This document shows, piece after piece, positions 40,501 to 64,000 of a stretch of 64,000 bases of DNA. The stretch spans positions 13,888,001 through 13,952,000 of the forward strand of contig CM120642.1 of the NCBI GenBank assembly GCA_051362555.1, written 5' to 3'. Both the position numbers and the translations under genes were made by a program. Every line of letters starts with the position of its first letter. The first letter of the stretch is position 1. The stretch is from Lingula anatina (Eukaryota; Animalia; Brachiopoda). The notes below the pieces were generated by a model. It saw only the letters and a list, made by a program, of their open reading frames with translations, ran no database searches and was not told the DNA's origin.

Positions 40501-42831
40501 CATATGTTTGCATACCTATAAAGCCATATATTAATTGGGATATAAAAAGATTCTATTTAACAAACAACTGAAAGAAAGCCCAAGTTACCATGAGCTAAAC
40601 TCCTGTCTTGTCCACTCAAACTTGTGATCCCAGTGCCTCATACCAGAGAAGTCTGGGAACAGTACGTTGAACTCAGCATTTGGGGTTGTCATGACAACAA
40701 GCGCTGGCTTAACCTGGTTAAATATTACCTCTGTTGATCTTTCCAAAGTGTCTGACTCAAGATGTTCTATGCTAAAATGTAAATATTTTAAAAATCAGAT
40801 GGTTATTTAACATTTGCAAAATTTAGTGTCACTGCTGGCTCCAAACTAGAAGTTAAAAGTGAGGAGGGAAACCACCCCTATTTTCAGATGCGTACAGGGG
40901 GCAGCAGTGCAGAAGTCCAAGAAGCACAGTCATACAGAGAGTACAACTGTTACAGTAAGTAATGTCATCCCAACCAGGCTGTAAATTATGTAGCCTAAGT
41001 TAACAGATTTCTTGTTGTAGGATTTGTTTATTTTCTTTGCTTAAAGGGATAATAACTCTTCATATGAGATCTATATTTCACAATAAAAACATTGTAAGCA
41101 ACTCATAGAAATATAATATATTCTGTTTTACCACAAAAACGGCAGTTATAGCTATTATTCTGATATCTGAGCTTGTTATCAGACCACGTGACTTCCATAG
41201 ATGGCTATACTCTGTAATAGTCTCTTAAGAGATTATAACATAAAACTAAACTTTTTAGAAAAAAAAACAGGGACTAACTTTGAATGTAGAAATGGATTCG
41301 TTAACCATTGGTAAGTATGGGAAAATTGTTGTTTAATTCATTTTTTGGCCAAAACGAACAGTTAATTTCCCCGTTAACTTACACCTCAATTAATATCATT
41401 GCTTCAAACTCCAGTAATCTACTGTCATATGCTCCAATACTGCCACAGAACAGGCTTGTCTTGAGTGGTGTTGGCCTCTTGTGAACATAATCTCTCAAAC
41501 ATGGCTTTATTATGTATCTGTTTTGTTCCAGTAATGCTGCAAAATCATAAATAATAACAATTATTGTCAAAGATTCAGAAAAGTTCCTACTAATTTGGCA
41601 TTCTAACTCTAAAACATTTTTGCAATATATCTTAAGTATTTGAATTTTAAAGATGGTGTCCTTTAAAAGGCTGAGCTATCTGTTCCATACATTCTTTCTA
41701 ACAAAAATTGTTTTGCTCAAAATCAAAAGAACAGCTATTAACTGTTTATTACACGTCGTACTTACGTACAATAGTCAGAAATGTTACATATCCCTAGTCC
41801 TCTCCCCCCCCCCCCCCACCAAAAAAAAACAAAAACATTTTAATAGTTATTTTGTCTGAGATAAAAATACCTCGGTCTATATCAAGACCAGCTATGGACT
41901 CCAGCGATGGCACAGTGTTCTTCAAATGTCTCAGAAATTTACATTCGGCACACCCAATGTCAAGAACCTGAAAATATTTAAGACTCTGTGGTTCCTTACA
42001 ACTTAACAGCAAAAACATGTGTGGACCTTTCTTAGACCCCATTCCCAGAGATAAGATCGATCCAACTAGATCGACCTAACTCCCTGGGGTTCACGCTAAA
42101 TAGCTGTCAGCCAAGCGGGCACAAAAGTTAATTACCCCCTTAAAGCTAGTAGTAGGCGGGACGGACATTTCAGCCAGATTATCTGACAGTAATCTAGTGA
42201 GACTCCCCACGGGGATAGATCTATCTAAAATCTATGGGAATGCACCCTTAGACCCCATTCCCACATATTTTAGATCGATCTATCCCTGTGGGGAGTCTCA
42301 CTAGATTACTGTCAGATTAGCCGGATTAAGCTGACTGCAATTTAGCATGAATGGATGGATCGAACTAAATCTCTGGGAATGCACTCTTTAAGTACATATC
42401 TGAAAACATTTACAGGAGTGCTGGCACTATTTTCCGGTGCTTTTACAAAAACCCCACCTCACACCCAACCTTTGGCTTTCAATGTATTTGAATAGCATAG
42501 ACATTGATCATAGTCACCACATAAGTGAGTTTTGTAAAAAAATATCCAAGACTAATATTAAGTGAGGGTATAATGCAGAAGTATCGAATTTTCTTGTTAT
42601 CGTTACTTTTTTGTGTACATGTACTAGTACCTTTTTTATGTCCCTGTCTCTAAGAATTTCGGCGACGGCAAGATATCTTTGCCTGTATAAAGGAGGATCG
42701 AAAAGAGATCCTTCAGCCCTTTTCTCTCCATCTCCTGCTTCACTCGGGTTTGCACTCGGGTTTTCATTTTTAATATCATCTCCTACAAGGACCCCAGTCT
42801 CTTCTGAAATCAAAATCTCGAACTTACTCAT
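37586..42831 (-). CDS. HENMT1: Small RNA 2'-O-methyltransferase Hen1, 8 exons, about 628 aa
   Basis: Exons (minus strand): 42831-42631 (FDPPLYRQRY), 41967-41871 (VLDIGCAECKF, SAM motif), 41536-41383 (..ILIEV), 40771-40589 (IEHL..TTPNAEFN..RHWDHKFEWTRQEF), 40088-39920 (GYTVEFGGVG..GFCSQLAIF), 39623-39463, 38880-38794, 38420-37586. All junctions are GT-AG and phase-consistent. Confidence 0.95.
42032..42390. mobile_element. Two adjacent MITE family A copies in HENMT1 intron 1
   Basis: TTAGACCCCATTCCCA starts at 42032 and 42248; TGGGAATGCAC ends at about 42245 and 42385. Confidence 0.8.
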
Positions 42832-43290
42832 CTGGTACCCAGTGTTATTTTCGAAGTTTGCTCAGTGTAGATGGTTGGTAGGTCCTGAGGTTCGGGTATT
42901 CAACTTTTTTGAGAGATGGGGTTTGGTCTTATTATAATTCCGTGGTACGATATAATGTAATCGTAAAAAAAAACTTCACTTGACAGCGGACGCATGCTTC
43001 CCCTCCCCTGAGACGCCCAGACTCTTTGGTTGCTGAAGAGTGGAATGGAATATTTCATACAGATGTCAGAGTAAAAAAAAACTATCTAAATGTATTCGTA
43101 GTCTCAAAAGTGTAGAATATGGGAAACAAAATAAAAAATCTTGGCAATAAGAACGCTTGATAGTGTTTAATAACGTTTGCTCGTTCGCTCGTGCCTTTTA
43201 TGTATTCTCTCTTTTTGCTATAAACATATTTCCGGTGTAAACATCCGACTGTACATGCGCAATGATCTTGCCGGGAGAAAGTTCCTACAG
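42832..43290. promoter_or_regulatory. Putative bidirectional promoter HENMT1/ABHD14 plus non-coding first exon of ABHD14
   Basis: Divergent genes. CpG-richer segment with an ETS-like TTCCGG (about 43230) and NRF1-like CATGCGCA (about 43255). Strong donor CAG|gtgagt at 43290. Confidence 0.6.
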
Positions 43291-43742: not shown

Positions 43743-45073
43743 AAGCTTAATTTAAAGAGCGTAAAAGTTATCTTACACATGACCCTGTGGACTGAATTTT
43801 GAACCTGATGCTGCATATATATACAGTATACTATATAGTGCCAGGCAATGTGAATGTGTGAACATATTTATATACATATTTTATTAACTTCAAACTAAAT
43901 ATGTGGGCATATTGCTCAGGAAAGGCATGGCATATATTGTGACTAATTCTGTAAAACTGTTAAGTGTATGCAGAAGTCAGTACTAGAATACTGTAAGTCT
44001 AAGTAAATTGGATCAGCATATAGGTGTGAGAATCTTCAATATCAAATTGGCCAGGGTCTCACTGCATGTGACTAGTAAGTTGAATGGTACCGGTACATTT
44101 TTCAGCATTTTATATATGATAGTGCTTGGTTACTGATTGTCTTATACTTGCATAGGGAAATGGCATTTATAGCCAGAAAACACATTATTTTAGGGGTATT
44201 TAAATATACAAAAAGGTTGGTTTCTTAGTTTTAACTAAAAATTAAAATTAAAATTTGAATTGATAATAAAAGACCTGAAAGCTCGTTTTCCAGTTTACTA
44301 TTTATTGCTTTGATTAATCTGTGAATCAACAATTCAACAATATCATATGCCGTTGTGGTAATACATTTGATTACCATAAACCATAAAGATACCAGTCAGT
44401 GTGGCTTTGTGTATTGAAACTTGAATTATACTTCTTTTATCTATAGGATGTCACACTGTTGTTTGTCAATACATACATACCTGTAGAATAGAACTGAGTA
44501 CTAGTGCATCTGGTGTTTCATCCTGGAGGCTGTCACAGTAGAAAAGGTGTGTGGTGCAAGCAAAGTTTTGAAAGCTGATGTCTCTTTTTTTATCATCATT
44601 TAACTTTGGTAGCTGGGTTTTTTTTTTTTTTTTTTTGTAGTTAACTGTATGTTCCTGGCCAAGCTACAATTTAAATTTTCTCTGTCCTGAAAAATGATGA
44701 AAATAGATTTTTAAAAATACATGATTCAGCTGAAATGGACTTAAGTTAATATTATTATTGTTGTTGTTGTTCTATATAATTTCCACAAATGCCTTCCAAG
44801 TTACTGTACTACTGCTTTTTAAAGGCCCTTTCTTGTGTTTACTGGCCTGTCAATGTTTAGGAAGAAGGCTTGGTTAGAAATAGTTAGATGTGTGCTAATG
44901 TTATCTCTTTAATAGCAGTTGCATTTCACTCACTTTTTCTCAAGATACAGTCGACAGACACATTCACCGTGACATACTGACCTCATTTCACTTGATACAA
45001 GGTCACTAAGATTAGACTGGCATAATATCAGTATGCAAACACTGGAATATCTTACCTGTCCTTCTAGCTCCCC

Positions 45074-47621
45074 ATGTCTAGGCCAAAGAGTGGCTTGCTT
45101 GATATGAAATTCAACAGACTGGTGGCAATTTGTCTATTGCTGACCCTTGCGCTCATACTGTACCTGTATTTTGGGAGATCTAAGAAGATGGTGGATCCAC
45201 ATGCAACCTGGAAGACAGGGAGGGAATTTGAGAGTGTACCACAAGAGGCTTTGGACAAATCCAGAACTGTCACAGTTGACACCAGGACCATGACAGTCAG
45301 GGTTGGAGACAAGGTGAGAGTAGGATGGTGTCAAATTACATTTTATAACAATGGCATTCACAGCAGGTTTAACTGAGTGTCACGTACAAAGTAGATTTTC
45401 TTGGTATTAGTTTTCTAACTGTTATTCTAGCTAGCATAAGTGTGAATTTTGACTCAATATATGCGTAGATAAATTTTACTCTGTTTAATATATCAAGCAT
45501 ACAATTTACAATACTTGCATGTATGATGTAAACATTGTATAACATTGAATTTATTTTAGTCAAGCAGAGGAAAAATCCATTAAATACAAGATTTTGTTTT
45601 CTTTTGATCATCCTTATTGGTTTTTTACCTTTCATAAAGAAAATGTTTTATAAAGTAAAGATCAATATATGTTCTGTTGTGTCGTAGGAAGCCAAGGTGT
45701 TTTATCGTGAGGCTATCCCAGAAGGCACTGCCAAGCTGTCAGTCCTTTTCCTCCATGGCATGAGGTTCAGTTCCAAGGACTGGAATGACATTGGGACACT
45801 GCAGATAACTGCTGCCTTAGGCTATAGAGCTGTGGCCGTTGATCTCCCAGGTGATAATTGGTACTCATACTGGTTTTAAGGTGGATTTACAGTCAGGTTA
45901 GGTTGACCTTCCTTTGGCCCCATTCCCATAGATACCATCATTCTATGTGGATCGACCCAACTCTGTGGGGACTCTTGCTGACTGTCATTCAGTAAAACTG
46001 ATTCCACTCAGCCAGAGTCCCCACGGTGTTGAGTTGATCCAAGTAGACCACTGGTGTCCATTGGAATGGAGTCTTAGAAGTAATTTATTCGAAGATCATG
46101 TCCTTATGGGTTTGAAAAAGTTATTCTATTTCGTGAACATATGAAGCCAATCTAATGGCAGTATACTAATATAAGTGTTATAATTGCAGTGGGCAAAGGG
46201 ACCTGATTCTGGTGGTCTGATTATAGAGCTCATGGTCAAAGTTGCGTTGACCCATGTTGATTGGCATTCACCTTGAAACAGTTTCCAAGCCTTTGATGCT
46301 ATATGCTGAATCTAACCAATATTTCAGGGATGTAAAAGCCTGAAGTGCAGAGAATAGGAGGGCAGAAGTACCTTTCAGTACCCCAGAGATGAAAGGGGCA
46401 AAATATCCCTTTAATATAATCAAATAAGACCAGCTGTCAATATTTGGGTGCTATAAAAATACTAATCATCAGTGATATGACAGTATCACTGATTGATCCA
46501 AGGTTTGGCTGGGCAATGGAAGGGGGGGTGGCAAGCTTAAGATATTTCAGGTTCATTCACTGTCATCTGCCCCTCCCCCTCCTTCCCCTCCACCAGGCAC
46601 CACTGTTGTAAATTATCTACTAGAATGTTTCTTTACCCTATCTGTAGTCCTTTAAATTTTCTGATTAGTTTATTTACTTTCCAGGATTTGGACAGAGCCA
46701 CAAATCCGAGGCTTCCTCTCAAGCAGTCCCCTTTATGAAAGCGCTGATTACTGAGTTAGATTTGCAGCGTCCAGTGCTGGTCAGCCCATCCATGAGTGGA
46801 CAGTTTGCCATTCCATATCTAATGGAGAATCCCGTCAAAGCACAGGAACGTCTCCGTGGTTACATCCCTGTGGCTCCAGTAAATACTGGGGCTTTTACAC
46901 ATTCAGAGTACCACAGAGTAGAGGTAAGACTGGGCAAGGAGGTTGATGAGGTTCATTCACCTCCTTGAGCTGGGTGAGATTATTTCAAGGAGGGGGGGCA
47001 TTGCTGTTGATTATGGAAAACAAATGGTGCCACACAGATGTACTTGTACTAGAATGCTCGGAATTTGGGAGGAAAAACTACCTTACACTCATCAAAGTTT
47101 ATGTGATATTTTTCAAATCATCCAAATCCATAACAATTTCTCTGCTTCTCAAAATAAAAAAAAAGTCATGTTTATACTTAAAAGGAAGTTTGTAAATTTA
47201 TTTTAACATTGAAATTGGTCTTCTTGCAAAATCTTATATTCTGGAATAAACCCAAATTTACTAAAATATATATATATTTTAACATCCCTTTCAGATTTTA
47301 TAAACAAAACCATTTGGGAGAAATGGCAAAACCATTTAATTCAAATTTGTTGAGCAATCACTGTAATTATTTATGTAATATATTAAATCTACAAAATAAA
47401 GTAGAAGTTTCATTTATCATGGTACCTCTTTCTTTCAGGTGCCCACCATGATAGTCTATGGGTCCAAGGACACCTCACTGGGCCTGACCTCACTGAATGA
47501 CCTGCGGAACATCAGAAATAGTGCTATATTCAAAATAGAGGATGCAGGGCACCCTTGTTATTTAGATAAACCAGAGAAATGGCATGAGCTGTTGTACAAC
47601 TTCCTAGCTGCCATTGAGTGA
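45074..47621 (+). CDS. ABHD14A: ABHD14A/B-like alpha/beta hydrolase with N-terminal membrane anchor, 4 coding exons, 274 aa
   Basis: Exons 45074-45313, 45688-45850 ([24 protein letters not shown]), 46685-46923 (VSPSMSG nucleophile motif, YIPVAPV), 47439-47621 ([17 protein letters not shown]). The hydrophobic [18 protein letters not shown] near the N-terminus favours the 14A type. Confidence 0.92.
45916..46076. mobile_element. MITE family A-related copy in ABHD14 intron
   Basis: CCCCATTCCCA...GGATCGACCCAAC-TCTGTGGGGACTC / GAGTCCCCACGG..GTTGATCC..TGGAATGGAGTC inverted arms. Confidence 0.65.
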
Positions 47622-48478
47622 TGTACCACAACTTGATTGTCTTTCTTTTTTTTAAATTATATTTTGTTACAAATGTTTTTTTAATCTTGCCTACTACCTG
47701 ATTTCATTGATTGCTAGAAATGAATTTGCACAGATCATACCAACATCAAGGAAAAGTATAGTTTTGACAGGGTATTAAAAAAGCATTAAAATTATGTAAT
47801 TGGAAGTGCTGAGAATTGAATTAATTATCTCATGAACACTGGGCAAATGTCATTTTCAATTAATCATGCATTTTTGCATGGTATTATGTCTTCCTGCAGA
47901 TTATAGGCTAATAAGGTCATATTGTGAGCTGGCATTTCTATAAAGGGAGAGTGCATTGGAAAATATAGCATCACATGAACAATTTTACCTGTAGAGGTAT
48001 CTTGCTGCTGTTAAACTCTTCACTGTATATTTCAAAATCCTTGGAGAATGAAAATGAAATCAAACATTTTTGTTTTTAACTTTGAATGGTCTATAAGACA
48101 TACTCTTTTGCTTATGGTTAACATTTTTCAGCAGTATGCAAACTGAGAAGCAGTCTATTATGGAAACATTCCAGGGCAGTTTATTGCTTTGTTTTCCTGG
48201 GCAGAGCAACAGCCATGAGATCTGTATGATCTGTACATTGCATTTTTATGTTAGGTGTAATATTTAGCATTACTTGAAAGGACAACACAGCTGCTTTATA
48301 CTGTACATTGTTGATCAAGGTTGCTGTTAGTAAGGCTATAAAGACTACAAGATACATATAATTTCTATATTGGTTTTCATTGATATGTAGCTGTGTTTTT
48401 TCAATTTTTAAGGAAGAAACCTTTTATGTTGGGATCTGTATTTGGATAAATGTGTTAAAGAAACGAATTTGTGGTGCC

Positions 48479-48516
<38 letters not shown>

Positions 48517-49983
48517 TCGGTAGTCAAGTTAAAGGTTGAGTATAGCATTTTTCAAATGTATCTATGGATACACCTTTGTATGTTGATGCTTTAGTAAATT
48601 TATTCTTTTGATACTTAGAAAATGTAGAAGCACTGGGCGATACGCGGTTTGTTGATATTCATATTCAGGGGCTGGGTCTAACGTTTTTTTCTTTGTCATA
48701 ATAAAATGTTTTTAAAAGGATTAAATGCATTATGTTGATAGTTTGAAAGTTGGTTTAACAGGGTTGGCAAATGTGCAATTTTGATCACGTTTTCGGGCAA
48801 TGTTTACAACATGACATACCGAACACCTGTGCCCAATGTCACCAATGCTGGATAGCGCTATCCCATTGGTTATCCCATGTTTCTCTCTCCTTTGCCCAAT
48901 TTTGTAACAGGTAGACGGGCCTCTGGAAGAGAAATGTAGGGTCGCCTCTGCAACTGGTTGCAAAACGCGGTCGGTTGCAAAATCCGGCGATATTTCCAAT
49001 CGCAACGCATTATGCAATTAGGTTTTATTTTTAAATCACTGAAACGGTTTCAAGTACCATAAATGCCATAGAGAATATCTATTGGGGAAGAGGGCACAGT
49101 GTACTGAATCCGATGGGACTGAGACAGGAACTAAAACTTTTTCTGTCATCAAGGATGTGCACGGACCCGCTTGAATTTCAGTGCGAATGAGGGAGGGGCC
49201 GTCTCCGGGATGAATTATTCCAATTTTTCTCTTGTAATTTCCGCTATCTCCTCCTAGACCATTAGTGTGACGAACTTGCCCTTGCACATCCCTGATTAAA
49301 GCTCTATCAATCCCAAAATTTTTAATTTACTGTAATGGTTTAGGAAGAGATTATCGGAAATTACAATATGTATTTAAAAAATCCTCTCCCCTCGGGGACG
49401 GATGGTGGCATGTTATTTTGGGAGGGCCCTTGCATTCCCTAATGACAGTTTTTTCAGGTTTCAGATCCCTTACCAGATTCGGCGTAAACTCATTCCTACC
49501 CCATCCCTATTTCTCTTTCTAAAATCCGCTTCAGCGACTTAGATATAATCTGGCAGCAAAGTGCGTTGCGGTTGCAAAATGCGGCTCCACAGAGTAAGGG
49601 TATCTTCTCCAGAGGAAATCGCTGTTTCATGGGCAGAGAATAGTGTCATAAAATATTAAGAATAACAATTTTATCCAGTGGCCAGTGTTAACCAAAACTT
49701 AGCGCTATCCACTCTGTCGAACGTACATGTGTATGGAAGTGCAACTTTATTGATGCGGGAAAATAATTACGTATGAAACAATATATTTGAATGTACTGTT
49801 ACAGTGCTATAGTTGCTTTATGAAAGTAAAACGCGTTCGACAGTCATACATGTCTTAAAAGACAAATGAGCAGCGGTATGCTATTCATTGCTATCACTGT
49901 GATGTGATGTGCTCCCGAATTGTGACAAATATGTGCAACTAAAACATTGGCGTCATCTCCTTTCCTTACTCTGTACTATAGGT

Positions 49984-50209
49984 CTCTCTAGCTGTAACAA
50001 TTGCTGTTATAAAACAATTATGAAACTATTATGAAACTGTTATAAAGCTATTATAAAACTGTTATAAAACTCTTATAAAACTCTTATAAAATTATTATAA
50101 AATTTTTATAAAACTATTACAGAACAGTTTAACTGTTGTAAAAAGTTATAAAACTGTTATAAAAGTGAGAAAAAGACGCCCTTAGTCCAATTTTTTAACG
50201 GCTAGAAAG
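49984..50209. repeat. 11-bp minisatellite (TTATAAAACTG-like), about 13 copies, inside a probable small TIR element
   Basis: Repeated ttataaaact units at 50006-50164, bounded by the inverted motifs CTCTCTAGCTGTAA and TTAACGGCTAGAAAG. Confidence 0.7.
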
Positions 50210-53200
50210 GCCTCTGGTAGAGTTTCACGTCCCCGTGGCATGCCCAGGTGGAAGATTTTTGTGCACCCCCCCCCCCCCCCACACACACACACACACACCA
50301 CCACCACCACCACCATCACCACCACCACCACACCAAAGGCACGAACGTGTATGTGTGGATAAATAGACACGGAGGTATTCTTAACAAAAGTTAAGGTATT
50401 GTTGATGAAAAGGATTTAATCCAGGATTTCGAATAGGGTTGCGATTAAGATTCTGTCCTTCAGAGTTTCAAATACCCACCAGATGGTTTACAGTTTATCA
50501 GTATCACAGTTGTCAGTCATGTCTTCTCTATCTGGTCTTCTCTGTAAGAATCAAATATGATAACGCAACCAACCGGGCTCGTAGTAGCTAGTGCTAGTAC
50601 AAAGCACACGCTATTATTTATTTATTTATTTATTTCAAAAAAAGCATCAACCACTTCATTTTGAACTCAATGGTGATATAAGGCTTAAAAAGGTTTTCTC
50701 AGTTAAAGATTTAGGCCATTGTCAAAACTTATTAGAACCTCCAACCCATGAAAGATTGCATTTATTCGGTACATCTAAACTTTGTCCAAGGAATGTGCCT
50801 GGGATTTCATAACAAAAGCTTCGTTTTTTAGTCATGGTAGGGGGTATCGTTTAAGTGATAATTATGTAAATTGTGATATAATTGCTAATTAGCATACATG
50901 TCAACTATCCCGGATAAAAAAACGAATCTCCAGGTCTCCTGTACGGGTAATCAAATCTGGATAAAAGTGACTTTGAAACGTCCGCTAACGTCCTGTCTAA
51001 AATTCCTAAATCAAAACAATTTTAGTTGTGTTTATATTTTTAGGCAAACTATTGAAAATCGATTTGTCTTCACAGTAATCGGGTAATCTTTTGACTCCCC
51101 CCCCCCCCCCCCCCCCCCCCCGCCCCTCCCACTGTGCAAAATTATAGAATCTTCAAATTTTAGATTTCCAGAGGTTGGCATCTCTGAATCAGACACACAT
51201 CAAGAATTTAAGACACATTTCGGTTTATGCTCAAGGGGGCTATCAGACCATGTTGTCTGCACATGTGCATTTGTAACTGAGTATCAGTTTTTAGGGTATA
51301 AATATCAGGCTAAGAAAACCTATGAAGCGTTTTATCTCATAACTATTGGGTAATAATGTAAGGATATGAAAATCTGTTGAAATAAGCCTTTTATTGATAT
51401 GCAACATGTCGTTCGGTTAAGAAGATAGCCCCGTTCCTGCCAATCCCCCTCTCCGCATCTTAAAGTGTGGGTTAAGGGTTTTTTAATTTTTCCAAATTGT
51501 TGCAGTGTTATAGCGATAAATTGCCAGGAGAGAAAGACCAAAGGTTGGTTAGTCGGTGAAAAAATGGATTTTTTGTGTTGGTAACCACTTGAAAAGTAAA
51601 ACCAATTAAATTAAGCATCTTTGGCTTTCTGTAGATTCACTTGCTGATCCGACATTATAATAGTCTGCTTGTGGATTTGGTTTCACAAACACTGGAAAAT
51701 ACACTGTTGTCCGTTCCATATATTTGTGAATATCATGTAACTCACGACTTTTGTTTGTCTTAAGATATTGCAAACATAACATGGATATAACCACATGAAC
51801 ATGACTAGAACGAGGAATTATAGTATATAGTACTATACTTCCTTGACCAGAACGACATTAAGATGCAAGTGAAACACGCACTACGCTGGCAAATTCAAAA
51901 AAATATTTATCGTTATAACGTACTTTCCTGAAATGAATTATGGTAATATATAAGACTTTTAGGAAGTTAATTTTTTACTGAGTACTGTATGCCCTTATTT
52001 TGTTTAAACATGCTCTACTGGGTTCTTTTCTTGGTTTCAGGAACGTTGTTTCATGTCCAAAAGAAATTGATGGAAGATATTTTTGAATATGTAGGCTGGG
52101 TGCTCTAACCAGCCGTGGACTGATAGTAAAAAATCCCCAGTTCAATGTCAAACAAAAAAGAAATGAAGGACGGGTCCAATGGATCAAAATAAGTACACCG
52201 CGACCCAAGCACATGTAGAGTGAAGGAAAGAAGACCATTTGCCAAATACTAACGCGCAACCAAACTCTGTCATGCCGTTCTTGCTTGTGTTCTGACCGAC
52301 AAGGTTCCAGGCCTTTGAAACGATAATTGCCGTTGTCTAACGCGTGCCTTGAGTTTGGTAGCATAAATGCACAAATTAACGCGTCTAGCCACTTGCTAAC
52401 GACCCCAACGTAAAATTGCTTGCCACAAGCTTAGCGTTTCGTTACACAAACAAATTGGCCAGCTTCCGTCCTGGTCTCTGCATAGGCCCCCTACGGCTTC
52501 TTTTCATACGGCAGCAATGCGTTCTCAACGATGTCCGGTGTGGCATGATAGACCCGTTCCGTGACAAAATCGTTCTGCACATGCGCATTAAGGGTAGATT
52601 GCAAGAAGGAACTGCCGGTATGACGATGTCGTCCTAAGTAGGCGCTATGTTTGCACTGAACTATGCTCTTTCAATTCATAATTCAGTGGTTTATGTCATG
52701 AGAGAGTATGTATTTGATAATCTTATAACTATACGGGGGAATGCTGGAAATGAGCTTTTGATCGTGACTGAACTGTTTTGCTCTGTGAGAAAAACGTGCT
52801 AGATCTACATATGTAAGACTCGTAGTATAAATTTTTTCACGCTACAATGTTCTTTCAATTCAGAGTTAAGTAATTTTCGTTAAAATTAAATTGTGTGTTT
52901 GATAAAACTATAAATTTCTCTGCGGGAAAATGTTGGAAATGCATGTGCAGCTACGTACTGTAAGTCAACGGACTGCTACCCCCGCGTGAATAATCCGTCA
53001 GGACGGTTTATTCACGACGACGGTTTCTTCACGTGACACCTGCTCACACGTTATCACTGTTTTAAAAAGCATTAAAAAACCTTTTTAATTAAAGAACATT
53101 TTGGTTAACTTTTATCTTTTAATCTTAAATACTTTAATGTTAGTTTTTAATTTATATTTGTAGTTTAAGTTTTTAATGACTGGAGTTTTTAATTTGGGCA

Positions 53201-53306
53201 TTTGTGCTTATTAATCTGAGGCTCGAGTAAGAAAACGCCTGATCCGTTTTTTGAGGCCTTGGTCCGGAGATCATGATATGAGGACCCTCAGGAATGTCGT
53301 TGATGG

Positions 53307-53462
53307 CCGGTGTGACAGGGATGGAAGTCCTAGGAGTGGTAGTCTGGGGTCTCATATGATTTGTACAGGTTAGGGTTAGTTGGAGTATTGGGGTTAGAAT
53401 ATGCACAAGGCAGTGGGAAGCGGAATGCGGTTCCTAGCGGACTTCCATTCCTGTTACACCGG
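53307..53462. mobile_element. MITE family B with internal GGTTAGGGTTAG
   Basis: TIRs CCGGTGTGACAGGGATGGAAGTCC / GGACTTCCATTCCTGTTACACCGG; a related copy lies at 61195-61354. Confidence 0.75.
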
Positions 53463-53482
53463 TTCCCACTACCTCATGCATA

Positions 53483-53937
53483 CCCTCTACCAGGGCGACT
53501 GATAGATTTTTACAGATATTCACAGATATGTCTCTAGCTAGATAGATGGTCATTTTGGGCTGAAGTCACCCTGTTGAGAAATCTCAAGGCTGATTACATG
53601 CCTGGTAATTGTTTGCGTAACTGCTCAGGCACTGCCACTTAGCAGGTCCAGTCTAAGTCAGACAGCAATCAAGGCAGTTAATTGCTCTGACTTTAATCAC
53701 TTGCTCTTCTGTGACAGATAAAAAAGCCTTAGTCTGGTTGTGTAACGAGCAGTTATCACATCGTTGTGAAGCCCAGCTCATCCAGAGCGAATACAAACCC
53801 TTTGGCGCGCGCGCAGAGATAATTGTTTCCACATGGGATTTTTCAACAGGGTGACTTCAGCCCAAAATGACCATCTATCTAGCTAGAGACATATCTGTGA
53901 ATATCTGTAAAAATCTATCAGTCGCCCTGGTAGAGGG
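53483..53937. mobile_element. Young MITE with near-perfect TIRs of about 100 bp
   Basis: CCCTCTACCAGGGCGACTGATAGATTTTTACAGATATTCACAGATATG... is mirrored exactly at 53840-53937. Confidence 0.88.
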
Positions 53938-54832
53938 AACTTTTGATCGTGCATATCGTTGGAATTGTTTTATACTGTCAGCCTTCCACATGTTATGCAA
54001 TTTTTATTTAGGTGTTGTGCTGACACGGTGTTGTCGGATTTACTTATCGCATTCATTGATCATTTATTAACTTAGTATTTCTTCGACTTAATTGTTCATG
54101 ATGCGTTTACTCAGTTTGGTATCTATACTGTTAGACATAGATTAATTGAAATGGCTTATCAGAAAGTGATAAGTCCACCAGATACGTAACATTTATCTTA
54201 TCATTACATCAAAAGGCAATCATTTCCCGTATTAGGTAGAGAACATGGCAAATAAACAAATACAGACGTAGGCGTTTATTTTGCTTTGTGCCTACAGCTG
54301 CCTATTAAACACCGAAAGCAACAGCTTTATTTCTTAAGCTTACTACTGTGTACAAATCTAATATACATATTTTCCAATTGTCTGTAAATACATTTAGTAA
54401 TAGAATTATTGCAACTCCAAATCGCAAGTCGTCTTTAACGAAACATCATCCCTTTGTCCTAAAAAGGATAAAGACAGCAATTGATTCATTTTTTATATAC
54501 ACACTTGAGTCATTTGTTCCTGTGAACGAAGGCGTCAATTCCATGTCTATAACCGCCAAACAGTAGCCTATGTATTCACTTAAAATATCTGCCTGTCTAG
54601 TGTGTGTGGAATCGCACGCCTTTTAAGAAGACTGTTTTGGCGTTTTCAAAGTGTTAGTGAAATTTCACAGCCCTTCATTTCGTTTATCTGCATAGACATT
54701 GTCACCACACTCGAGGAAGTTTGTAGCCAACATCGGTTTGTGATGTCACATGCAGTAGATGGTTAGATTTTATAGTCAGACTTATATCCATGTTTATTAT
54801 GGTTTTGTAACATGCTTAGGATTAAGTTGGAA

Positions 54833-56043
54833 TTAACCCACCATACAACAGTGAGCAGTCAGTTTTGTCAGATCAAATACTTTCCCGTTGTGAATGACTT
54901 TTCCTGTGGGTTTCTTTGTTGTCTGCTTGGCGTGCTTAGCCCATGCTTTAAACCAGGTTTTCAATATTTCCTTAGCTTTAGAATCTCTTCTCACTCTCAT
55001 CTTGGCACTAGTCTCCGTTCTGTTAAGTTTTATATCATTCTTATTGTCCAACTGCTCAACAGCACGACGGATTTGTGCCACGTCTACTGAATCTTTTCCT
55101 GGTAATTTGTGACTTTTGTGATCTTTTTGACCCCGGAATGCTTGAGTAGGTAGAAGTATGTCTACATTGTGCCATTTAGTGTTTTGTGTCTTTTGTTCAT
55201 TGACATAGTTTCCCTTGGAGGAGTAAGCTGTTCCTAGAAAAAAATCAAAATGCAGTTGTATTGACAAAGGCACATACAGAGGGACACAGGCAACAGGCCT
55301 ACTCAACTACCAGACTCGGCACCGAATGATCCCGAATTCACCGGTAGATCGGACCACACTACTCGTTTTCAAGGTATGCGTCAGTACGCATTTCACAGTA
55401 TCATACCACGGAACAAATTTTTGAGATGAGATGCGCTACTTTCCAACCCCGCTGAGAATCATCGCTATCACATCGCGTGCTAGGCAAGAGCGGTGTCGCG
55501 TCTGATACTTCGATGCTCGTCCTGACGCACACCTTGAAGAAAGGTAGTGTGGATTCAGGATCATTCGGTGCTGAGTCTGGTATTTGGGTAGGCCTGGGCA
55601 AGCTATGTCCAATTCAAAAGGGTTAACAAAGCCTCTCCGACCCAAGAGCTTGAGATTTTTGTCTTTCACATTGGTACATACTTTTAGTACTTAGAAACTA
55701 TAAGTTCTTCTCTAATATTAAAAATTTCACAGGAATTTAAATTAATGCAAACTACATAACGCAAACCAAATTAATGTAACTGTCAAATTTGCTGAAACCT
55801 ATGAATGAAAAAAACGTTAAAAACTTATTTTCACCCCTTTTACCCCTTGTTTTTGTTAAGGTCCCTTGACACGATTATTTCATAACAACAAATGTACATT
55901 TAAGAATACTTACTTAATCGAGTTAGCATAAGACCAAATTCTGAAGAGATGTTACTGTCATAATTCTTTCTTGTTGGCAACGCGTGGGTATGGAAAGTCA
56001 ACTGGAAGCAGACGAGGGCTTGCAAAAGTGAGAACTCCATCAT
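54833..56043 (-). CDS. Uncharacterised secreted precursor 1 (176 aa): signal peptide, pro-region, RVRR furin site, 50-aa cationic peptide ending HCCMVG
   Basis: Exon 56043-55914 (MMEFSLLQALVCFQLTFHTHA-LP..., phase-1 donor gtaagt) joined to exon 55233-54833 (acceptor tttttctag). AATAAA on minus at 54798-54793. C-terminus is homologous to the neighbouring gene. Confidence 0.72.
55294..55596. mobile_element. MITE with CAG...CTG termini and 5-bp TSD, in intron of secreted gene 1
   Basis: TIRs CAGGCCTAC(T/C)CAA..TACCAGACTC; TSD GGCAA at 55289-55293 and 55597-55601. Confidence 0.8.
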
Positions 56044-56330
56044 GTAAAAAACTGTGGAACCCTGTGCGACATATAGGCAGGCTCACCGCGTGAACCTTCA
56101 AGCAAACGGTTTGGTGAAATCTTCAAGTTAACAAGGAAAGCTATTTCCTCAAAAGTCCAAGTTTGTTGGGTGCACAACTCCCAACATATATTCAGTTGAG
56201 TTATAAAAACCGACCGGTTGAGCAAGTAAACAATGTTTCCACGACTTGGGGTAAAATGAAAATGACAATATTTGGACCTCAGTTAGCGTATCGTTAGATT
56301 TCATTATTTGAAATAGGCCGAACATCTATA

Positions 56331-56533
56331 GAGGCCATTCAGAATGAGTAAAACCGAGTGCTAGCTAGGCCACGACTTAAATATGGCAGACCTACATGAA
56401 AGGAAGACCGCTTAATCATGTAATGGTCTCTCCGCCTCTCACACGCCCTCCCACGCGTCGTCCCGGTCGAGGGACGACACGTGGGGAGTCGTGGCCTAGC
56501 TAGCACTCGGCTTTTCTCATTCTGAATGGCCTC
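56331..56533. mobile_element. MITE
   Basis: TIRs of about 47 bp, GAGGCCATTCAGAATGAG..AACCGAGTGCTAGCTAGGCCACGACT and its reverse complement. Confidence 0.82.
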
Positions 56534-58881
56534 AATGGGGTCCACTGAGCATACAAAACAGATAAATGAGCAACGTCCAATCAAACATATCAGCTGTTTA
56601 TTCTGATTATTCATTAACTTTATATTTGCGCTCTACTATATAAGATACATGTACCCTCATTCACGTAAGTGGGCTAAGACCCACCAAACTCGTACTTAAT
56701 TCCGGAATTACAAGATATGAATGGGGTGTCCCAAAATATACCAGCCTAGCCGGATATATGCTTCATTTACATTAGCAGGTAGATAGAATTTAGTTTTTTG
56801 GCAAATGATTAAAAACCTAATAAAATCTGTGGGTTATTTGTCTTGTTTCCCCGTCTTCTTTTAATTTAGCAAATCAAACTGACATTGCGCCAATTCCCAC
56901 GGCCATAGTACCCGCGATCTGATACCATAAATGTCAAGTACTCATTTAGTTCAAAGTAAAGTTTACCGTCAAAATCCATAATCGATTTAATAACATTAAT
57001 ATTTAGAATGTCAGAGGTTTTTTTTAGACTCAGTGGAAACCTAAGGCGCTTCTGTATTTCACATATCCCAAGTTTGTTACTCACCGCGACTTTGCACTAT
57101 GAGATTTGTCACGTGCCCATTAGGGACAGTAAGTATTGCAACATAGTAAAGGTAGAAGTTTTGTATTACATATATAAAGCAATGAAAGTTGGTTTCCGTG
57201 ATAAAGATATTTTTCATTATTTTATTCTACAATAAACATGGGTATGAATTAATATAAATTTTGCTCGTGTAGCCATGTAAACTTTTAACGACCACTATCA
57301 ATCTTTCGACTTTCGTATTCAGTCCTGGCTGTAAAAAATGCAAGAACAAATGTATCTGTCAACGGGTGAACTTTCAGTATTTTCTTTCCAATATCGTTAC
57401 GTGTCTTTTCTATTAAGCATAGACAAATTTTAATAAGTCCATGTATTACATGTACGTCTTCAGTTTTAATTGCCTGTAAGGCAGAGATTTGCAGAAAGCA
57501 AATAACAAACGCAGACTTTGCATCAAGTCCGATAAAACTGGTTAACGAAGGAAGTGATTAATTTTCACTACCATGCTGTTGTGTTGTCAGACGGAACTGC
57601 ACAGCATTTGGAATCTACTTATCAAAAACTATCTACTACTCAGAGTGTCACCATAGTTGAACGTAATTAATATCACATTGCTTGGCGCAAATTGAGACTG
57701 AGTGTGAAATCTTGATTTCCTGATCACCGCCAAAAAAGGCACAGAACTTAAGTTCTGCAATGAACTGTCGGAAAACAAACTACCGTGTTGACACTTAATA
57801 TGGAATGCTTTTTCCAAATTATTTTTTCTTTGATATTTTCCAATTTTTCTGGGTAATAAATGAAACAAATAATTTAATCGCGTTTTAATATATTTTAATA
57901 ATCTAGAAGTTCTTAAATTGAATTCATCAATAGAGAATTACAAAAATATGTGGCTGATGTGTCTTTAAACAAGCAGTCAAATGGGTTCCGTCTCCCGGTG
58001 GTAAATTTTGGATGCCTTGGGCGTGGCCTCTGAGTAGGTGCAGTCTGAGCATGCGTCTGTAAGGCTGTGTGAACCGTTCCACGTGAAATTAATTTGTCTG
58101 GCAGTGGGTATCTGTTTCGCTCCATGCTTGCAAGTGCATAAAGTATTGATACGTTTTCTCATAGGTGTGTGTGTGTCATTTGGCCCCTTGAAGAAGCTGC
58201 AGGGTTAACTTCGACGTTTTGTTCTGTAAAAGGCCAAGGAGGGTGGAATAAACGCAAGGGACTCGGCTTTGAGTATGGGAAGACCTCAATGAACTCTCTA
58301 TCAAGCATCTGCGAAAGAGGGCACTGTTTAGATTTCGTATTGACCCAGTAAACACACCAAACTGTATCAACTAAATCATGGGCAGTATCAATGTATGTAT
58401 GTATGTAGGACTAAGTGCAAAAGCTCAAGTATGTGACAGTGAAGTCAATATTGGTTTGAGGTTGTGCCAGGCCAGTTTTGTCTGGTCAAACGACAGGTCA
58501 GATTCCCATTCGCGTCAGTTTTAGCTGAAAATGTGGCTACAAGACAAAGTTATCAAAGCGGCAGTACATGAGATTTTTGCTGTCTTAAATATCTTTCAGG
58601 AGTCATCCCTCTACATGCACACTTTCAATGAATAGGTATACATCTTTATTTCAGATCTGACGAAAATTCCTTTGCTTTCAATATGTTTAATTCCATTCCA
58701 GGAAATAAAAAACACACGGAGACTTGAATATTTAGCCACTAAACGTTACTGTTTTTCTCTCTCTCGGAAAAAAATCTGGACACTGAATTTCTTAACCACT
58801 GGATGTTGAATTATTGTTTCAGAGTGTTCCCTTGGTGATAGGGAGAGAGTAGGAAAAAAAATCTACACCTCCGTTGTGTCT

Positions 58882-60060
58882 TTACCCAATGAGGCAGCAA
58901 TGGTCTATCAGGCTGCTTACATGGAAAGTTTTTCCAAGGAAGTTTATGGTACCATCTGGAGAAACACCATTTTGTTTAATTCTCTGGACTTCTCTCCATA
59001 TTTGCAGCAACTGGGTTAAATTCAGGGATTTTAACCAGTCGTATATTTTCTCGAGATCACTTCTGTTGTCACGATCCTTAAAAATGGGAGTTGGTGTCGG
59101 CAACGGATAGTTTTTTGCTATCTCTAAGAGTATTTTGAACTCCGCCATTATTTTCTTAATTAGGTCGTTCTTCAGTTTTTCAGCATACGTTCCTGTAAGT
59201 ATTGAAGGTTCATCAGTTACATTGTATCTTTATCACAGTTTCACACAAGAGTTTACAAGTATGTGTGAATCAACTTTATTAGAAGTGAAAAAGAGTGCAT
59301 GTCTATTAAAACCTAGTATTCTTGAATCAAAACCCTGCACACAGCCCCTTTAATAATTGTCTACCGGTATATGTGTAAAATGAACAATTACTCCCCTGGC
59401 CCAGTTCTAAAATGTGACCAACTAATGAGCGCTCTAAAGGTGTGCTTGGAGTTAAGATGGGACAACCTAACTTATAACGTTCCACTTTGTATCTTAGCGG
59501 GTCGTCAGGTTATTATGGCTTTTATGTTCAGGGCAGTGGTGGATTGAGGCTGTCTTCTGGGTCTTCCGGAAGACAGTCAGATTTTCAAGTTTACTTTGAT
59601 GGGTATCTAACTTTTTTGTCGGAAAAAATAGAGGATGGATTTACAAAGATACTTTGGAAGACTGTCAGAAAATTTATCTGGATCCGCCCCTGTCAGGGAA
59701 ACACTCTAATCGCTCTGGCGTCCCACCCACCTTCATTTTACATGAGGCACATGTAAGAATTGACTTCCTTGGGGTAAAATCGGGCGATATGCTGATATAG
59801 TACATACTAAGATAGGACGAAACATCTTCAATGAAATAATTCTCATTTCAAACAGCATGAACAACAGGAAAGGGTAGAAATCCTCACACGAATGTCAAAT
59901 TATTTTCATACGAGGCCAAAAATTAGCACTGCCTCCATGGAACCTTCGTTAATACCCAGGAATATTGTAATAACATTAATTACGTACCAATAAACGTTGC
60001 CGAACACTGACCAGCCACACAAACGGCTAGAAACAGCAGGCATGGTAGTTTAACGTCCAT
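58882..60060 (-). CDS. Uncharacterised secreted precursor 2 (127 aa), paralog of precursor 1, ending HCCLIG
   Basis: Exon 60060-59988 (acceptor ttctcattctag directly before ATG; MDVKLPCLLFLAVCVAGQCSA-TFI; phase-1 donor gtacgt) joined to exon 59192-58882 (acceptor acttacag). RDNR (RxxR) site. AATAAA on minus at 58650-58645. Confidence 0.75.
59534..59692. mobile_element. Small TIR element with 6-bp TSD, in intron of secreted gene 2
   Basis: CAGTGGTGGATT...GGATCCGCCCCTG; TCAGGG repeated at 59528-59533 and 59693-59698. Confidence 0.6.
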
Positions 60061-61194
60061 CTAGAATGAGAAACAAAAATAATACTATCTAGCATCTGCC
60101 TTGTTTATCAGGTCAACGAACTTATTCACACAACCCTCTTGATAACAAATTTAACTATCGGTTATCAGTGAATAAGTGCTGATCACACCCATTGCAAAAA
60201 CATCATGTTTAATGTGATAATAAATAACATTCCACACTATGTTAGACTATTGGCATTAGATGAGAAAAAAACCTTGATATAACCACAATACATTATCCGC
60301 TTAAAAATGCATACAATATATGCATGCATGCATTAACAAAACACAAGTATCATGTCTACATACCAAGTAACTAAAAAGTTTTTTTTTTTTTTTACTATTT
60401 TCTTTCTATGTAACCACCATAATTGAGTCTAAAGTACATACGTAAAACTAGAAAAAGTTTAAAAGTTAGCTGCTCCTGCGGGCTACCCTCTCATATCAAG
60501 GGGGCACTAAAATACAAAATCACACTATGGGCTTTTAAACATTTTTGTAACAGACTACCAGCTGCAGCGCACTCTGTGGTCAGAGAGTAAATGCGGGCTA
60601 CTGATATAGCTTCAGTCAGGGTCTAACAATGTATCATTCTATTAAATCTGATATATAGAAATAATGGCATACATACATTTATACAATTATCTCGACAGAT
60701 GATAAGACTGAGCAGTACAAAATGTTGTACTTTTGACTTCCAGGGGCTGAACGCACTGGAGATAAAGCGACAATTCTTGATTTTCTGTGCACGTACTGGA
60801 GGCAAAACGCTGTCCAAAGCAAAAGCCATAAGCTGTGCACTATAACGTTACTTCAGACACAGTGTCTCTATGTCCAAGCAGTTAAAACGCACCGAAAAGT
60901 GATTCATAGGCATTCAGACGTGTTACATATTGAATTGAAGGCTACATCCTGCATGTTAAGCATATGTTACAGAAAAAAAAACGACTGTAATTTTTACTAC
61001 GGTACCACCCTCAACAAATTGAAATGCTAGTTTTGATGTTACTGAATGTGTCTCATTACAACACGGGCCAAAACATCACAGAGTGAAATGAGTGTCAATC
61101 TTACTTGAAACTGACCAAGATTACGAAAAACTGACACAAGAAAAAAACTGATTCAAACTGAATAATTTGCTGTTCAGAAAATAACTAAAGAATA

Positions 61195-61354
61195 CCGGTG
61201 TGACAGAAATGGTATTCCTAGGAATGGAAATCCGGGGTCCCATATGACCAATACAGGTTAGGGTTAGTCGTACCACTGGGTTAGTTTATGGGACGAATGT
61301 CGCCTGTAGGTGATGGGGGACGGACCAGTTCCTAGCGGACTACCCTTCCTGGCA
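61195..61354. mobile_element. MITE family B copy
   Basis: Colinear similarity to 53307-53462 (CCGGTGTGACAG..CCTAGGA..CATATGA..TACAGGTTAGGGTTAG..GTTCCTAGCGGACT). Confidence 0.7.
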
Positions 61355-62166: not shown

Positions 62167-62568
62167 ACAGTCGGCATCAACAAATGTACACACGCAATGT
62201 GTCAGCCTCTTCTACAAGTCATTTCTTCCGTGACACTTAGACTGGGTTCCCATGCCTAGATCGATCCATCTGGATCGACCTAACTCCCTGGGGAGTCTCA
62301 CTAAATTGCTATCAAATAACCGGCTTATATCTCTGTCACGCCTACCGAATCAGCTAGGGGGTAAAGATAATTACCCCCTAACAGCTTTACTAGGCGTGAC
62401 AGACATTTTAGCCGGCCAAGTTGACAGCAATTTAGTGAGACTCCCCAGAGAGATAGATCGATCCAGATGGATCGATCTAGGCATGGGAACCCAGTCTAAG
62501 TGTCACGGAAGAAATGACTTGTAGAAGAGGCTGACACATTGCGTGTGTACATTGTTGATGCCGACTGT
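62167..62568. repeat. Fold-back palindrome: MITE family A copy plus inverted duplication of about 70 bp of its flank
   Basis: 62167-62278 is the near-perfect reverse complement of 62458-62568 (one 1-nt indel). Confidence 0.88.
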
Positions 62569-63868
62569 GGGAATGTGGGAATGGTCTCCAAGTGTCTATC
62601 CCCTAGAATCATCAACCCAGAAAACACGTAACGTTACAAAACCGTTACCATAACGTTTATATGACTAAAAAACGTTATGGTGACGTTGCAAAACGTTCTG
62701 TGTTTGCTGGGAACAATGATAGATTCAGTGGAAGAAAAAAATTCTCTTTATCCAAAACAATATGGCAGAACCAACACCTCCTCTCCCCCCACCCTCACCC
62801 CTAAAATAAGAAAAGAAAGACTCACTAAATTGCTATCAAATAACCGGCTTATATCTCTGTCACGCCTACCGAATCAGCTAGGGGGTAAAGATAATTACCC
62901 CCTAACAGCTTTACTAGGCGTGACAGACATTTTAGCCGGCCAAGTTGACAGCAATTTAGTGAGACTCCCCAGAGAGATAGATCGATCCAGATGGATCGAT
63001 CTAGGCATGGGAACCCAGTCTAAGTGTCACGGAAGAAATGACTTGTAGAAGAGGCTGACACATTGCGTGTGTACATTGTTGATGCCGACTGTGGGAATGT
63101 GGGAATGGTCTCCAAGTGTCTATCCCCTAGAATCATCAACCCAGAAAACACGTAACGTTACAAAACCGTTACCATAACGTTTATATGACTAAAAAACGTT
63201 ATGGTGACGTTGCAAAACGTTCTGTGTTTGCTGGGAACAATGATAGATTCAGTGGAAGAAAAAAATTCTCTTTATCCAAAACAATATGGCAGAACCAACA
63301 CCTCCTCTCCCCCCACCCTCACCCCTAAAATAAGAAAAGAAAGACTCACTAAATTGCTATCAAATAACCGGCTTATATCTCTGTCACGCCTACCGAATCA
63401 GCTAGGGGGTAAAGATAATTACCCCCTAACAGCTTTACTAGGCGTGACAGACATTTTAGCCGGCCAAGTTGACAGCAATTTAGTGAGACTCCCCAGAGAG
63501 ATAGATCGATCCAGATGGATCGATCTAGGCATGGGAACCCAGTCTAAGTGTCACGGAAGAAATGACTTGTAGAAGAGGCTGACACATTGCGTGTGTACAT
63601 TGTTGATGCCGACTGTGGGAATGTGGGAATGGTCTCCAAGTGTCTATCCCCTAGAATCATCAACCCAGAAAACACGTAACGTTACAAAACCGTTACCATA
63701 ACGTTTATATGACTAAAAAACGTTATGGTGACGTTGCAAAACGTTCTGTGTTTGCTGGGAACAATGATAGATTCAGTGGAAGAAAAAAATTCTCTTTATC
63801 CAAAACAATATGGCAGAACCAACACCTCCTCTCCCCCCACCCTCACCCCTAAAATAAGAAAAGAAAGA
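62297..63868. repeat. Tandem triplication of a 524-bp unit
   Basis: CTCACTAAATTGCTATC at 62297, 62821 and 63345; copies look identical. Confidence 0.95.
62616..62711. mobile_element. 96-bp CCCAG...CTGGG mini element (also at +524 and +1048)
   Basis: TIR CCCAG(A/C)AAACAC, internal AACGTT repeats, AA on both flanks (EnSpm/CACTA-like). Confidence 0.65.
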
Positions 63869-64000
63869 CCTTTTCTTTTACTTGAAAGTGAAAACCCATC
63901 CCATGTTTTAAAAATCTGGTCATAAAATAGCATAAAAATCAAATGTGCTACTAACTTCCGCCAATGTGCCATTTTTCAAATCAGTGCTTATAAAAGCTAA

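What the first reader, a model, noticed from the sequence alone, without database searches (positions are those of the whole stretch)
54833..60060. Tandem pair of unrecognised secreted peptide precursors sharing a C-terminal HCC-x-x-G-stop
Seen: two same-strand genes with the same architecture, a signal-peptide exon, a phase-1 intron and a large terminal exon, each followed by AATAAA. The ORF track shows only the second exons. The last 25 residues align without gaps at 10/25 identity: PTGKVIHNGKVFDLTKLTAHCCMVG* vs PDGTINFLGKTFHVSSLIDHCCLIG*. They are preceded by similar amphipathic segments (EILKTW and QLLQIW) and RxxR sites (RVRR, RDNR). The vicinal CC pair is the only cysteine content outside the signal peptides. 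The terminal Gly fits alpha-amidation. The gene 1 mature peptide (50 aa, 11 Lys, 3 acidic) is strongly cationic. Inference: a family of neuropeptide, pheromone, antimicrobial or toxin-like peptides, possibly disulfide-linked homo- or heterodimers. I cannot assign it to a known family.
Basis: partly seen in the sequence, partly recalled or inferred. Interest (0 to 1): 0.8.

Follow-up and report, generated by a model that had tools for sequence, protein, structure and literature searches.

The report
Orphan peptide-hormone-like pair in lamp shell
Two neighbouring, anciently duplicated genes of the lamp shell Lingula encode small proteins predicted to be secreted and cut to 50-60-residue peptides sharing a cysteine-pair tail, likely amidated and likely acting as signals, but they match no known family and I could not show that they are expressed.

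Summary
Two minus-strand, phase-1-intron genes end in HCCMVG-stop and HCCLIG-stop. Gene 2 (127 aa) is in no protein collection searched. The paralogy is beyond chance (0 of 5000 shuffles) and lies only in the last ~45 residues; 8 of 10 shared residues use different codons, so the tail was kept by selection after an old duplication. No Pfam family, outside homologue or clear fold was found. Both tails model as helix, beta-hairpin, helix. Insulin/relaxin membership fails: no B-chain cysteines, and the A-chain pattern stops after CCxxG. The cationic antimicrobial reading fits gene 1 (+8) but not gene 2 (net 0). Neither terminal exon got a read in 8 of 9 listed RNA runs (6-30% of each read), while a neighbour was spliced in the 4 runs where it was included. 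Best reading: a lineage-restricted family of convertase-cut, amidated signalling peptides made in few cells or stages (about 0.4). Real and uncatalogued, but small orphan secreted peptides are common and the function is untested.

The parts
60061..60083 (-). Polypyrimidine tract and AG acceptor directly in front of gene 2's ATG (implies an upstream exon, probably 5' UTR, not located)
   Evidence: sequence
59988..60060 (-). Gene 2 first coding exon (73 nt): predicted signal peptide of about 21 aa, phase-1 donor
   Evidence: hydropathy peak 3.3 over 9 residues; SignalP not available
59193..59987 (-). Gene 2 intron (GT..AG, 795 nt), holds a dispersed repeat at about 59534-59692
   Evidence: repeat seen as loose-ended reads
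58882..59192 (-). Gene 2 terminal coding exon: pro-region, RDNR, mature part, TAA stop
   Evidence: not found in protein collections
58885..59061 (-). Gene 2 predicted mature peptide, 59 aa, net charge 0; model helix-helix-hairpin-helix, ends HCCLIG
   Evidence: pLDDT 77, pTM 0.53
58645..58650 (-). AATAAA, candidate poly(A) signal of gene 2
55914..56043 (-). Gene 1 first coding exon (130 nt): predicted signal peptide of about 21-22 aa plus about 21 aa of pro-region, phase-1 donor
   Evidence: equals RefSeq XP_013405197.1; hydropathy peak only 2.0
55234..55913 (-). Gene 1 intron (GT..AG, 680 nt), holds a MITE-like inverted-repeat element at 55294-55596
54833..55233 (-). Gene 1 terminal coding exon: basic pro-region, RVRR, mature part, TAA stop
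54836..54985 (-). Gene 1 predicted mature peptide, 50 aa, net charge +8; model helix-hairpin-helix, ends HCCMVG
   Evidence: pLDDT 67, pTM 0.33
54793..54798 (-). AATAAA, candidate poly(A) signal of gene 1

Best explanation
The two genes are old paralogues in Lingula anatina that encode likely prohormone-type precursors: a predicted signal peptide would route them into the secretory pathway, a convertase would likely cut at RVRR (gene 1) and perhaps RDNR (gene 2), the terminal Gly would likely become a C-terminal amide, and the released 50-59-residue peptide, predicted to fold as helix, beta-hairpin, helix, likely acts as a signalling ligand made in few cells or stages. Shown: gene structure, paralogy, conservation confined to the last ~45 residues, silent-site divergence, no family match. 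Inferred: secretion, cleavage, amidation, fold. Least supported: the signalling role. The CC pair sits at the end of the last helix and would be oxidised in the secretory pathway, either as a vicinal ring or as bonds to another chain; which one is not known.
For: Gene 1 equals a RefSeq model, so an independent annotation gives the same exons. Both have an N-terminal hydrophobic stretch with small residues at the predicted cut, one RxxR site each and Gly as last residue. Similarity is significant (0 of 5000 shuffles) and absent from the pre-pro parts (541 of 5000), the pattern expected when only the released peptide is constrained. DNA identity over the last 26 codons is 38/78 and 8 of 10 identical residues use different codons, so the residues were kept at protein level. 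What is kept is the hairpin (P-x-G, GK-x-F), a Leu and H-C-C-x-x-G, while net charge is not (+8 against 0): this fits a specific binding surface better than charge-driven membrane attack. Both models give the same order of elements (same two-sequence alignment, so not independent). Absence from bulk RNA where a neighbour is spliced is compatible with a restricted site of expression.
Against: No read on either terminal exon and no junction read in 8 of 9 listed runs, so expression is not shown; gene 2 has no protein record at all. No relative outside this pair, so no conservation across species supports a hormone role. Neither peptide is in the brachiopod/phoronid/nemertean proneuropeptide set of PMC8557429, though that screen looked for known families and multi-copy patterns. 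Gene 1's hydrophobic core is weak (peak 2.0). Gene 2's RDNR is only a minimal site and overlaps an N-glycosylation sequon. No receptor, tissue or activity data exist.
Confidence: 0.4

Rival explanations
1. Host-defence or cytolytic peptides: the amphipathic helix attacks membranes, and expression is induced by infection or wounding.
For: Gene 1 mature part net +8, pI 9.95; amphipathic helices in both (hydrophobic moment 0.66 and 0.85 over 11 residues). Signal, pro-region, convertase site and amidation are also typical of such peptides (own knowledge). Inducible genes would be silent in ordinary samples.
Against: Gene 2 mature part is net 0; the pro-regions are basic (+10, +3), not acidic; conservation lies in the hairpin and CC tail, not in charge. 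Only two copies in this window, with no sign of a recent array.
Confidence: 0.2
2. Secreted structural, adhesive or gamete-surface proteins in which the two adjacent Cys cross-link chains to each other or to a matrix.
For: Two Cys and no others in the mature part can make two inter-chain bonds. Orphan status and absence from the sampled RNA fit fast-evolving gonad or matrix proteins. Nearest Atlas clusters by features include SPACA7 and PRAP1, at 0.78-0.80, which is within chance.
Against: No repeats or biased composition. No hit for the accession or tail motifs in the supplements of two Lingula shell-proteome papers (no positive control, so weak). A terminal Gly and convertase site are not needed for this role.
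Confidence: 0.15
3. One or both genes are now silent relics, gene 2 above all.
For: No reads on the exons in 8 runs; gene 2 has no protein record.
Against: Both frames, splice sites and poly(A) signals are intact although silent sites between the two are saturated; gene 1 is a RefSeq protein-coding model. Only 6-30% of each run was read and tissues are unknown.
Confidence: 0.1
4. Remnants of an insulin/relaxin-like gene that lost the B chain and the second half of the A chain.
For: The tail reads like the first half of an A chain: several insulin-like precursors in the supplement of PMC8557429 show CC-x-x-G-C, among them brachiopod ones. Relaxin-type genes have one phase-1 intron in the coding sequence (PMC11863921).
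Against: No Cys between signal peptide and CC; both genes stop where the third Cys should be; no Cys pattern on read-through. No plausible completing exon behind three possible donors (0 of 300, 0 of 300 and 1 of 535 AG sites, the one lacking a pyrimidine tract and lying beyond gene 1) and no Cys-bearing cassette exon in either intron. The basic site is 45 and 54 residues before CC, against about 5-8 in the sequences. No Pfam hit.
Confidence: 0.07
5. The tail is a CCaaX lipidation signal (CMVG, CLIG with an upstream Cys), so the proteins are prenylated and acylated membrane-bound proteins.
For: Both tails fit C-aliphatic-aliphatic-X with an extra Cys in front, a motif described for YKT6 and FBXL2 (PMC12609287). 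Gene 2's exon could be internal, as its ATG follows an acceptor.
Against: Prenyltransferases are generally considered cytosolic, while both proteins start with a signal-like segment and gene 1 has a full furin-type site. Gly is not among the usual X residues (own knowledge, not tested).
Confidence: 0.05

Closest known systems
Single-copy amidated prohormone precursors in general (signal peptide, pro-region, convertase site, peptide-Gly)
   Same: Overall architecture, conservation limited to the C-terminal peptide, Gly as last residue.
   Different: No sequence match to any Pfam family or to the 72 spiralian proneuropeptide groups' listed sequences (tail and internal motifs absent); mature part is a 50-59 aa predicted mini-domain with only a vicinal CC.
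Insulin/relaxin superfamily A chain (Pfam Insulin; RGP, Dilp7/8 types)
   Same: Short helix leading into CC-x-x-G; signal peptide; phase-1 intron.
   Different: No B chain, no third and fourth A-chain Cys, cleavage site far from CC, a predicted hairpin in front; cannot form the three insulin disulfides.
Linear cationic amphipathic antimicrobial peptides made as prepropeptides (names such as cecropin, dermaseptin, arminin are recalled, from no call)
   Same: Gene 1: Lys- and Trp-containing amphipathic helix right after RVRR, net +8, possible amidation.
   Different: Gene 2 is neutral, pro-regions are basic, and the conserved part is the hairpin and CC tail.
Cytochrome b5 / MAPR domain N-terminal hairpin (PDB 1icc, 4x8y) and cytochrome bc1 hinge subunit (9f5x)
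   Same: Short local likeness around GK-x-FD and D-H-C at E 0.33-2.2.
   Different: All at chance level, mutually exclusive, not supported by Pfam and not among the listed fold matches.

Membership tests
Insulin/relaxin superfamily | B chain with two Cys after the signal peptide | tested here: not met
   No Cys between signal peptide and CC; 0 and 1 open cassette-exon candidates in the two introns, the one without Cys
Insulin/relaxin superfamily | A chain pattern CC-x3-C-x8-C | tested here: not met
   Stop after CC-x-x-G in both; no Cys on read-through; no plausible completing exon within 49400-58881. Transcript ends not seen in RNA
Insulin/relaxin superfamily | Basic cleavage site shortly before the A-chain CC | tested here: not met
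   45 and 54 residues upstream against about 5-8 in the listed precursors
Insulin/relaxin superfamily | One phase-1 intron in the coding sequence | tested here: met
   Exons of 130 and 73 nt; feature stated in PMC11863921; common in secreted-protein genes, so weak
Insulin/relaxin superfamily | Match to the Pfam profile | tested here: not met
   No insulin family listed
Amidated prohormone-type precursor | Cleavable signal peptide | tested here: inconclusive
   Hydropathy only: peak 3.3 (gene 2), 2.0 (gene 1); no SignalP available
Amidated prohormone-type precursor | Convertase site before the conserved peptide | tested here: inconclusive
   RVRR full consensus in gene 1; RDNR minimal and overlapping an N-glycosylation sequon in gene 2
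Amidated prohormone-type precursor | C-terminal Gly as amide donor | tested here: met
   Last residue in both, different codons
Amidated prohormone-type precursor | Processed, amidated peptide present; receptor activation | not testable with these tools
   Needs peptidomics and receptor assays
Amidated prohormone-type precursor | Spliced transcript | tested here: inconclusive
   No exon or junction reads in 8 of 9 listed runs, tissues unknown, 6-30% of each run read; RefSeq model exists for gene 1
Cationic amphipathic antimicrobial peptides | Net positive mature peptide in the family | tested here: not met
   +8 in gene 1, 0 in gene 2
Cationic amphipathic antimicrobial peptides | Amphipathic helix | tested here: met
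   Hydrophobic moment 0.66 and 0.85; helices in models
Cationic amphipathic antimicrobial peptides | Antimicrobial activity | not testable with these tools
   Needs assay
CCaaX lipidated proteins | C-terminal C-C-aliphatic-aliphatic-X | tested here: met
   CCMVG and CCLIG (sequence); motif in PMC12609287; suitability of X = Gly not tested
CCaaX lipidated proteins | C-terminus in the cytosol | tested here: inconclusive
   Signal-like N-termini argue against; topology not measured
Cytochrome b5 / MAPR domain | Significant sequence match over the domain | tested here: not met
   Best E 0.9 and 2.2 over 27 and 9 positions; no Pfam hit; protein ends where the domain would continue
Cytochrome b5 / MAPR domain | b5 fold | tested here: inconclusive
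   Not listed in fold searches of two low-to-medium-confidence models

The most novel reading that the evidence does not exclude
The two neighbouring genes encode the two chains of an undescribed brachiopod hormone with its own helix-hairpin-helix mini-fold: a basic and a neutral amidated chain joined through their CC tails, an A-chain-like end used without any B chain, and a candidate for the still unnamed peptide that triggers spawning in lingulids (that lophophore factor is recalled; search listed no paper).
Probability: 0.08. Interest if true: 0.75.

Novelty: new variant of a known kind. Interest (0 to 1): 0.36.

Why it matters
Brachiopod peptide catalogues were built from known families and multi-copy patterns, so single-copy orphans like these are missed. 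If the peptides are made, they add a selected, folded, amidated peptide family with an unusual two-cysteine tail to a poorly studied phylum, and both are short enough to synthesise and test. Gene 2 is also a gene missing from the public annotation. Against that, invertebrate genomes hold many orphan secreted peptides, and nothing here shows what these do.

Tried and rejected
Whole-genome search for further paralogues: no genome is held for this window, so copy number outside the window is unknown. Pfam: 0 significant families for terminal exons, mature parts, tails and full gene 1. Homologue searches: gene 2 exon, 0 of 3 candidates; gene 1 exon, 1 of 2, its own RefSeq record; two-sequence profile against longer proteins, 1 of 121, the same record; profile against 1.84 billion representatives, 4 hits, of which 1 is gene 1 and 3 are repeat-driven partial matches without the CC tail, dropped after reading. 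At that library size a relative as distant as the two paralogues are from each other could be missed. Metagenome contigs: 0 of 357 pattern matches confirmed. PDB by sequence: nothing under E 0.1. Fold searches: Foldseek 0 matches at E 0.001 for both models; VIA-align best Z 4.6 (rmsd 3.9, 48 aligned) and 3.7 (rmsd 2.9, 46 aligned), none at Z 5; this shows neither a known nor a new fold. ESM Atlas: best feature score 0.81 for gene 1, none usable for its mature part; gene 2 could not be looked up there. Complex prediction of two copies of the gene 2 mature part: no answer, score 0.01; the heterodimer was not tried. RNA index: no RNA holder listed. Literature: LOC106170033, 0 papers; truncated A chain terms, 0; brachiopod spawning peptide terms, 0; listings showed nothing on this family. 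bioRxiv supplements and most subscription papers were not searchable and may list these genes under other ids. Earlier scan notes: 0 near this place, 0 by either sequence, 0 by words. Rejected: the 'ECCWPGC' at 37765 is part of the last exon of another gene, not a third family member.
Full report
What is there. The window comes from the brachiopod Lingula anatina: the terminal exon of gene 1 matches, at 100% identity, RefSeq XP_013405197.1, 'uncharacterized protein LOC106170033'. Splicing 56043-55914 to 55233-54833 gives exactly that 176-aa record. Gene 2, spliced 60060-59988 to 59192-58882, gives 127 aa and has no record in the collections searched. Both introns are GT..AG and phase 1. AATAAA lies 35 and 232 nt behind the stops. 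Gene 2's ATG follows a strong acceptor, so an upstream exon exists that I could not place. MITE-like and dispersed repeats sit in both introns and upstream of gene 1.

Is the likeness real? Yes. The local alignment score of 74 was reached by 0 of 5000 shuffles; without the last six residues the score of 40 was reached by 75 of 5000; the pre-pro parts alone are unrelated (541 of 5000). BLASTP gives 14 of 45 identical. Of 5614 stop-to-stop segments in the window, 2 end in CCxxG, these two. The last 26 codons are 38/78 identical as DNA and 8 of the 10 shared residues use different codons. That is the signature of an old duplication with selection on the protein tail, and it argues against chance ORFs.

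Anatomy. Each protein starts with a hydrophobic stretch (9-residue hydropathy peak 2.0 in gene 1, 3.3 in gene 2), has one RxxR site, and has no Cys outside the signal region except the final CC. After RVRR gene 1 leaves 50 aa with net charge +8; after RDNR gene 2 leaves 59 aa with net charge 0. The pro-regions are basic (+10, +3). RDNR overlaps a glycosylation sequon, so gene 2's cut is uncertain. AlphaFold2 on the two-sequence alignment gives helix 2-11, helix 15-31, strands 38-41 and 44-47, helix 48-58 for gene 2 (pLDDT 77, pTM 0.53) and helix 2-22, strands 29-32 and 35-38, helix 39-48 for gene 1 (pLDDT 67, pTM 0.33). The shared residues map to the amphipathic helix (L, W), the hairpin (P-x-G, GK-x-F) and the last helix (L, HCC, G).

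Expression. Nine RNA runs of the same species label were listed and eight laid. In X1, X2, X4 and X7 a neighbouring gene showed three spliced junctions with 6 to 70 reads each, while the bins 54439-55005 and 58408-58974 had depth 0 and no junction of either gene appeared. In X5, X6, X8 and X9, at finer bins, both terminal exons and gene 2's first coding exon had depth 0; X9 had a trace of about one read pair just upstream of gene 1's ATG. That call had no control gene, only repeat-derived reads. Only 6-30% of each run was read and the tissues are not known. So transcription is not shown; the genes are at most rare in these samples.

Relatives. None was found outside the pair: Pfam, word-indexed searches, the full HMMER scan of 1.84 billion representatives (4 hits: gene 1 and 3 repeat-driven matches that I read and dropped), metagenome contigs, PDB sequences, fold searches and the ESM Atlas. 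Three short look-alikes appeared: insulin A-chain starts, cytochrome b5/MAPR hairpins (E 0.9, 2.2) and the bc1 hinge subunit (E 0.33, 0.86). They exclude one another and all are at chance level. The genome itself and other brachiopod assemblies could not be searched, so 'orphan' means orphan in these collections.

Insulin test. Insulin/relaxin precursors need signal, B, C and A chains with three disulfides and have a phase-1 intron after the B chain (PMC11863921, passages). Here there is no B-chain Cys, both genes stop where the third A-chain Cys would be, and read-through gives no Cys. Behind the three possible donors, 0 of 300, 0 of 300 and 1 of 535 AG sites would complete C-x8-C; the one hit has no pyrimidine tract and lies beyond gene 1. 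Neither intron holds a Cys-bearing in-frame cassette. Membership is not met. Descent from such a gene is not excluded but has little support.

How it most likely works. Secretion, convertase cleavage and conversion of the last Gly to an amide follow from established precursor biology and are inferred, not shown. The CC would be oxidised in the secretory pathway as a vicinal ring or as inter-chain bonds. I favour a signalling ligand (0.4) because constraint is limited to the released C-terminal part, keeps specific residues and an amidation-ready end, and does not keep charge. Rivals: defence peptide (0.2), cross-linked matrix or gamete protein (0.15), silent relics (0.1), insulin remnant (0.07), CCaaX lipidation (0.05; motif from PMC12609287, passages).

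Print. PMC8557429 (abstract, sections 5 and 21, supplement searched): the supplement holds Lingula precursors, a control term was found, and eight motifs of these two proteins were absent; its screen used known queries and multi-copy patterns. PMC4595640 (passages and supplement search) and PMC13425148 (listing and supplement search): no motif or accession found, without a positive control. The locus id is in 0 papers of the library. Other searches were seen as listings only.

Verdict. A real, selected, uncatalogued pair of precursor-like genes, one of them unannotated. It is a new variant of a familiar kind of gene. Without expression, relatives or activity the interest is moderate: 0.36.

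Noticed in passing
window 16258-16608 and 23223-23495, + strand: Exons of a PBX/extradenticle-type gene: PBC domain (E 5e-24) and TALE-type homeodomain (E 9e-11).
   Followed up: partly
window 37586-42861, - strand: Multi-exon gene that reads like the small-RNA methyltransferase HENMT1 (name recalled; the fragments scanned gave no Pfam hit), with a long acidic last exon of about 280 codons.
   Followed up: no
window 45068-48700, + strand: Expressed, spliced gene resembling an ABHD14-type hydrolase with an N-terminal membrane anchor (name recalled); junctions 45311/45686, 45846/46681, 46921/47437 in 4 of 4 runs. Used as expression control.
   Followed up: partly
window 53483-53937, 55294-55596, 56328-56536: MITE-like elements with terminal inverted repeats (104 nt at 98%, 48 nt at 90%, 50 nt at 94%); many copies occur in other transcripts.
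   Followed up: no
window 62234-63925: Tandem repeat with a unit of about 524 nt, about three near-identical copies (identical ORFs at 524-nt spacing).
   Followed up: no
window 49993-50175: AT-rich satellite with an 11-nt unit.
   Followed up: no
window 53307-53392 and 61195-61280: Two copies of a dispersed repeat, 79% identical, on either side of the gene pair.
   Followed up: no
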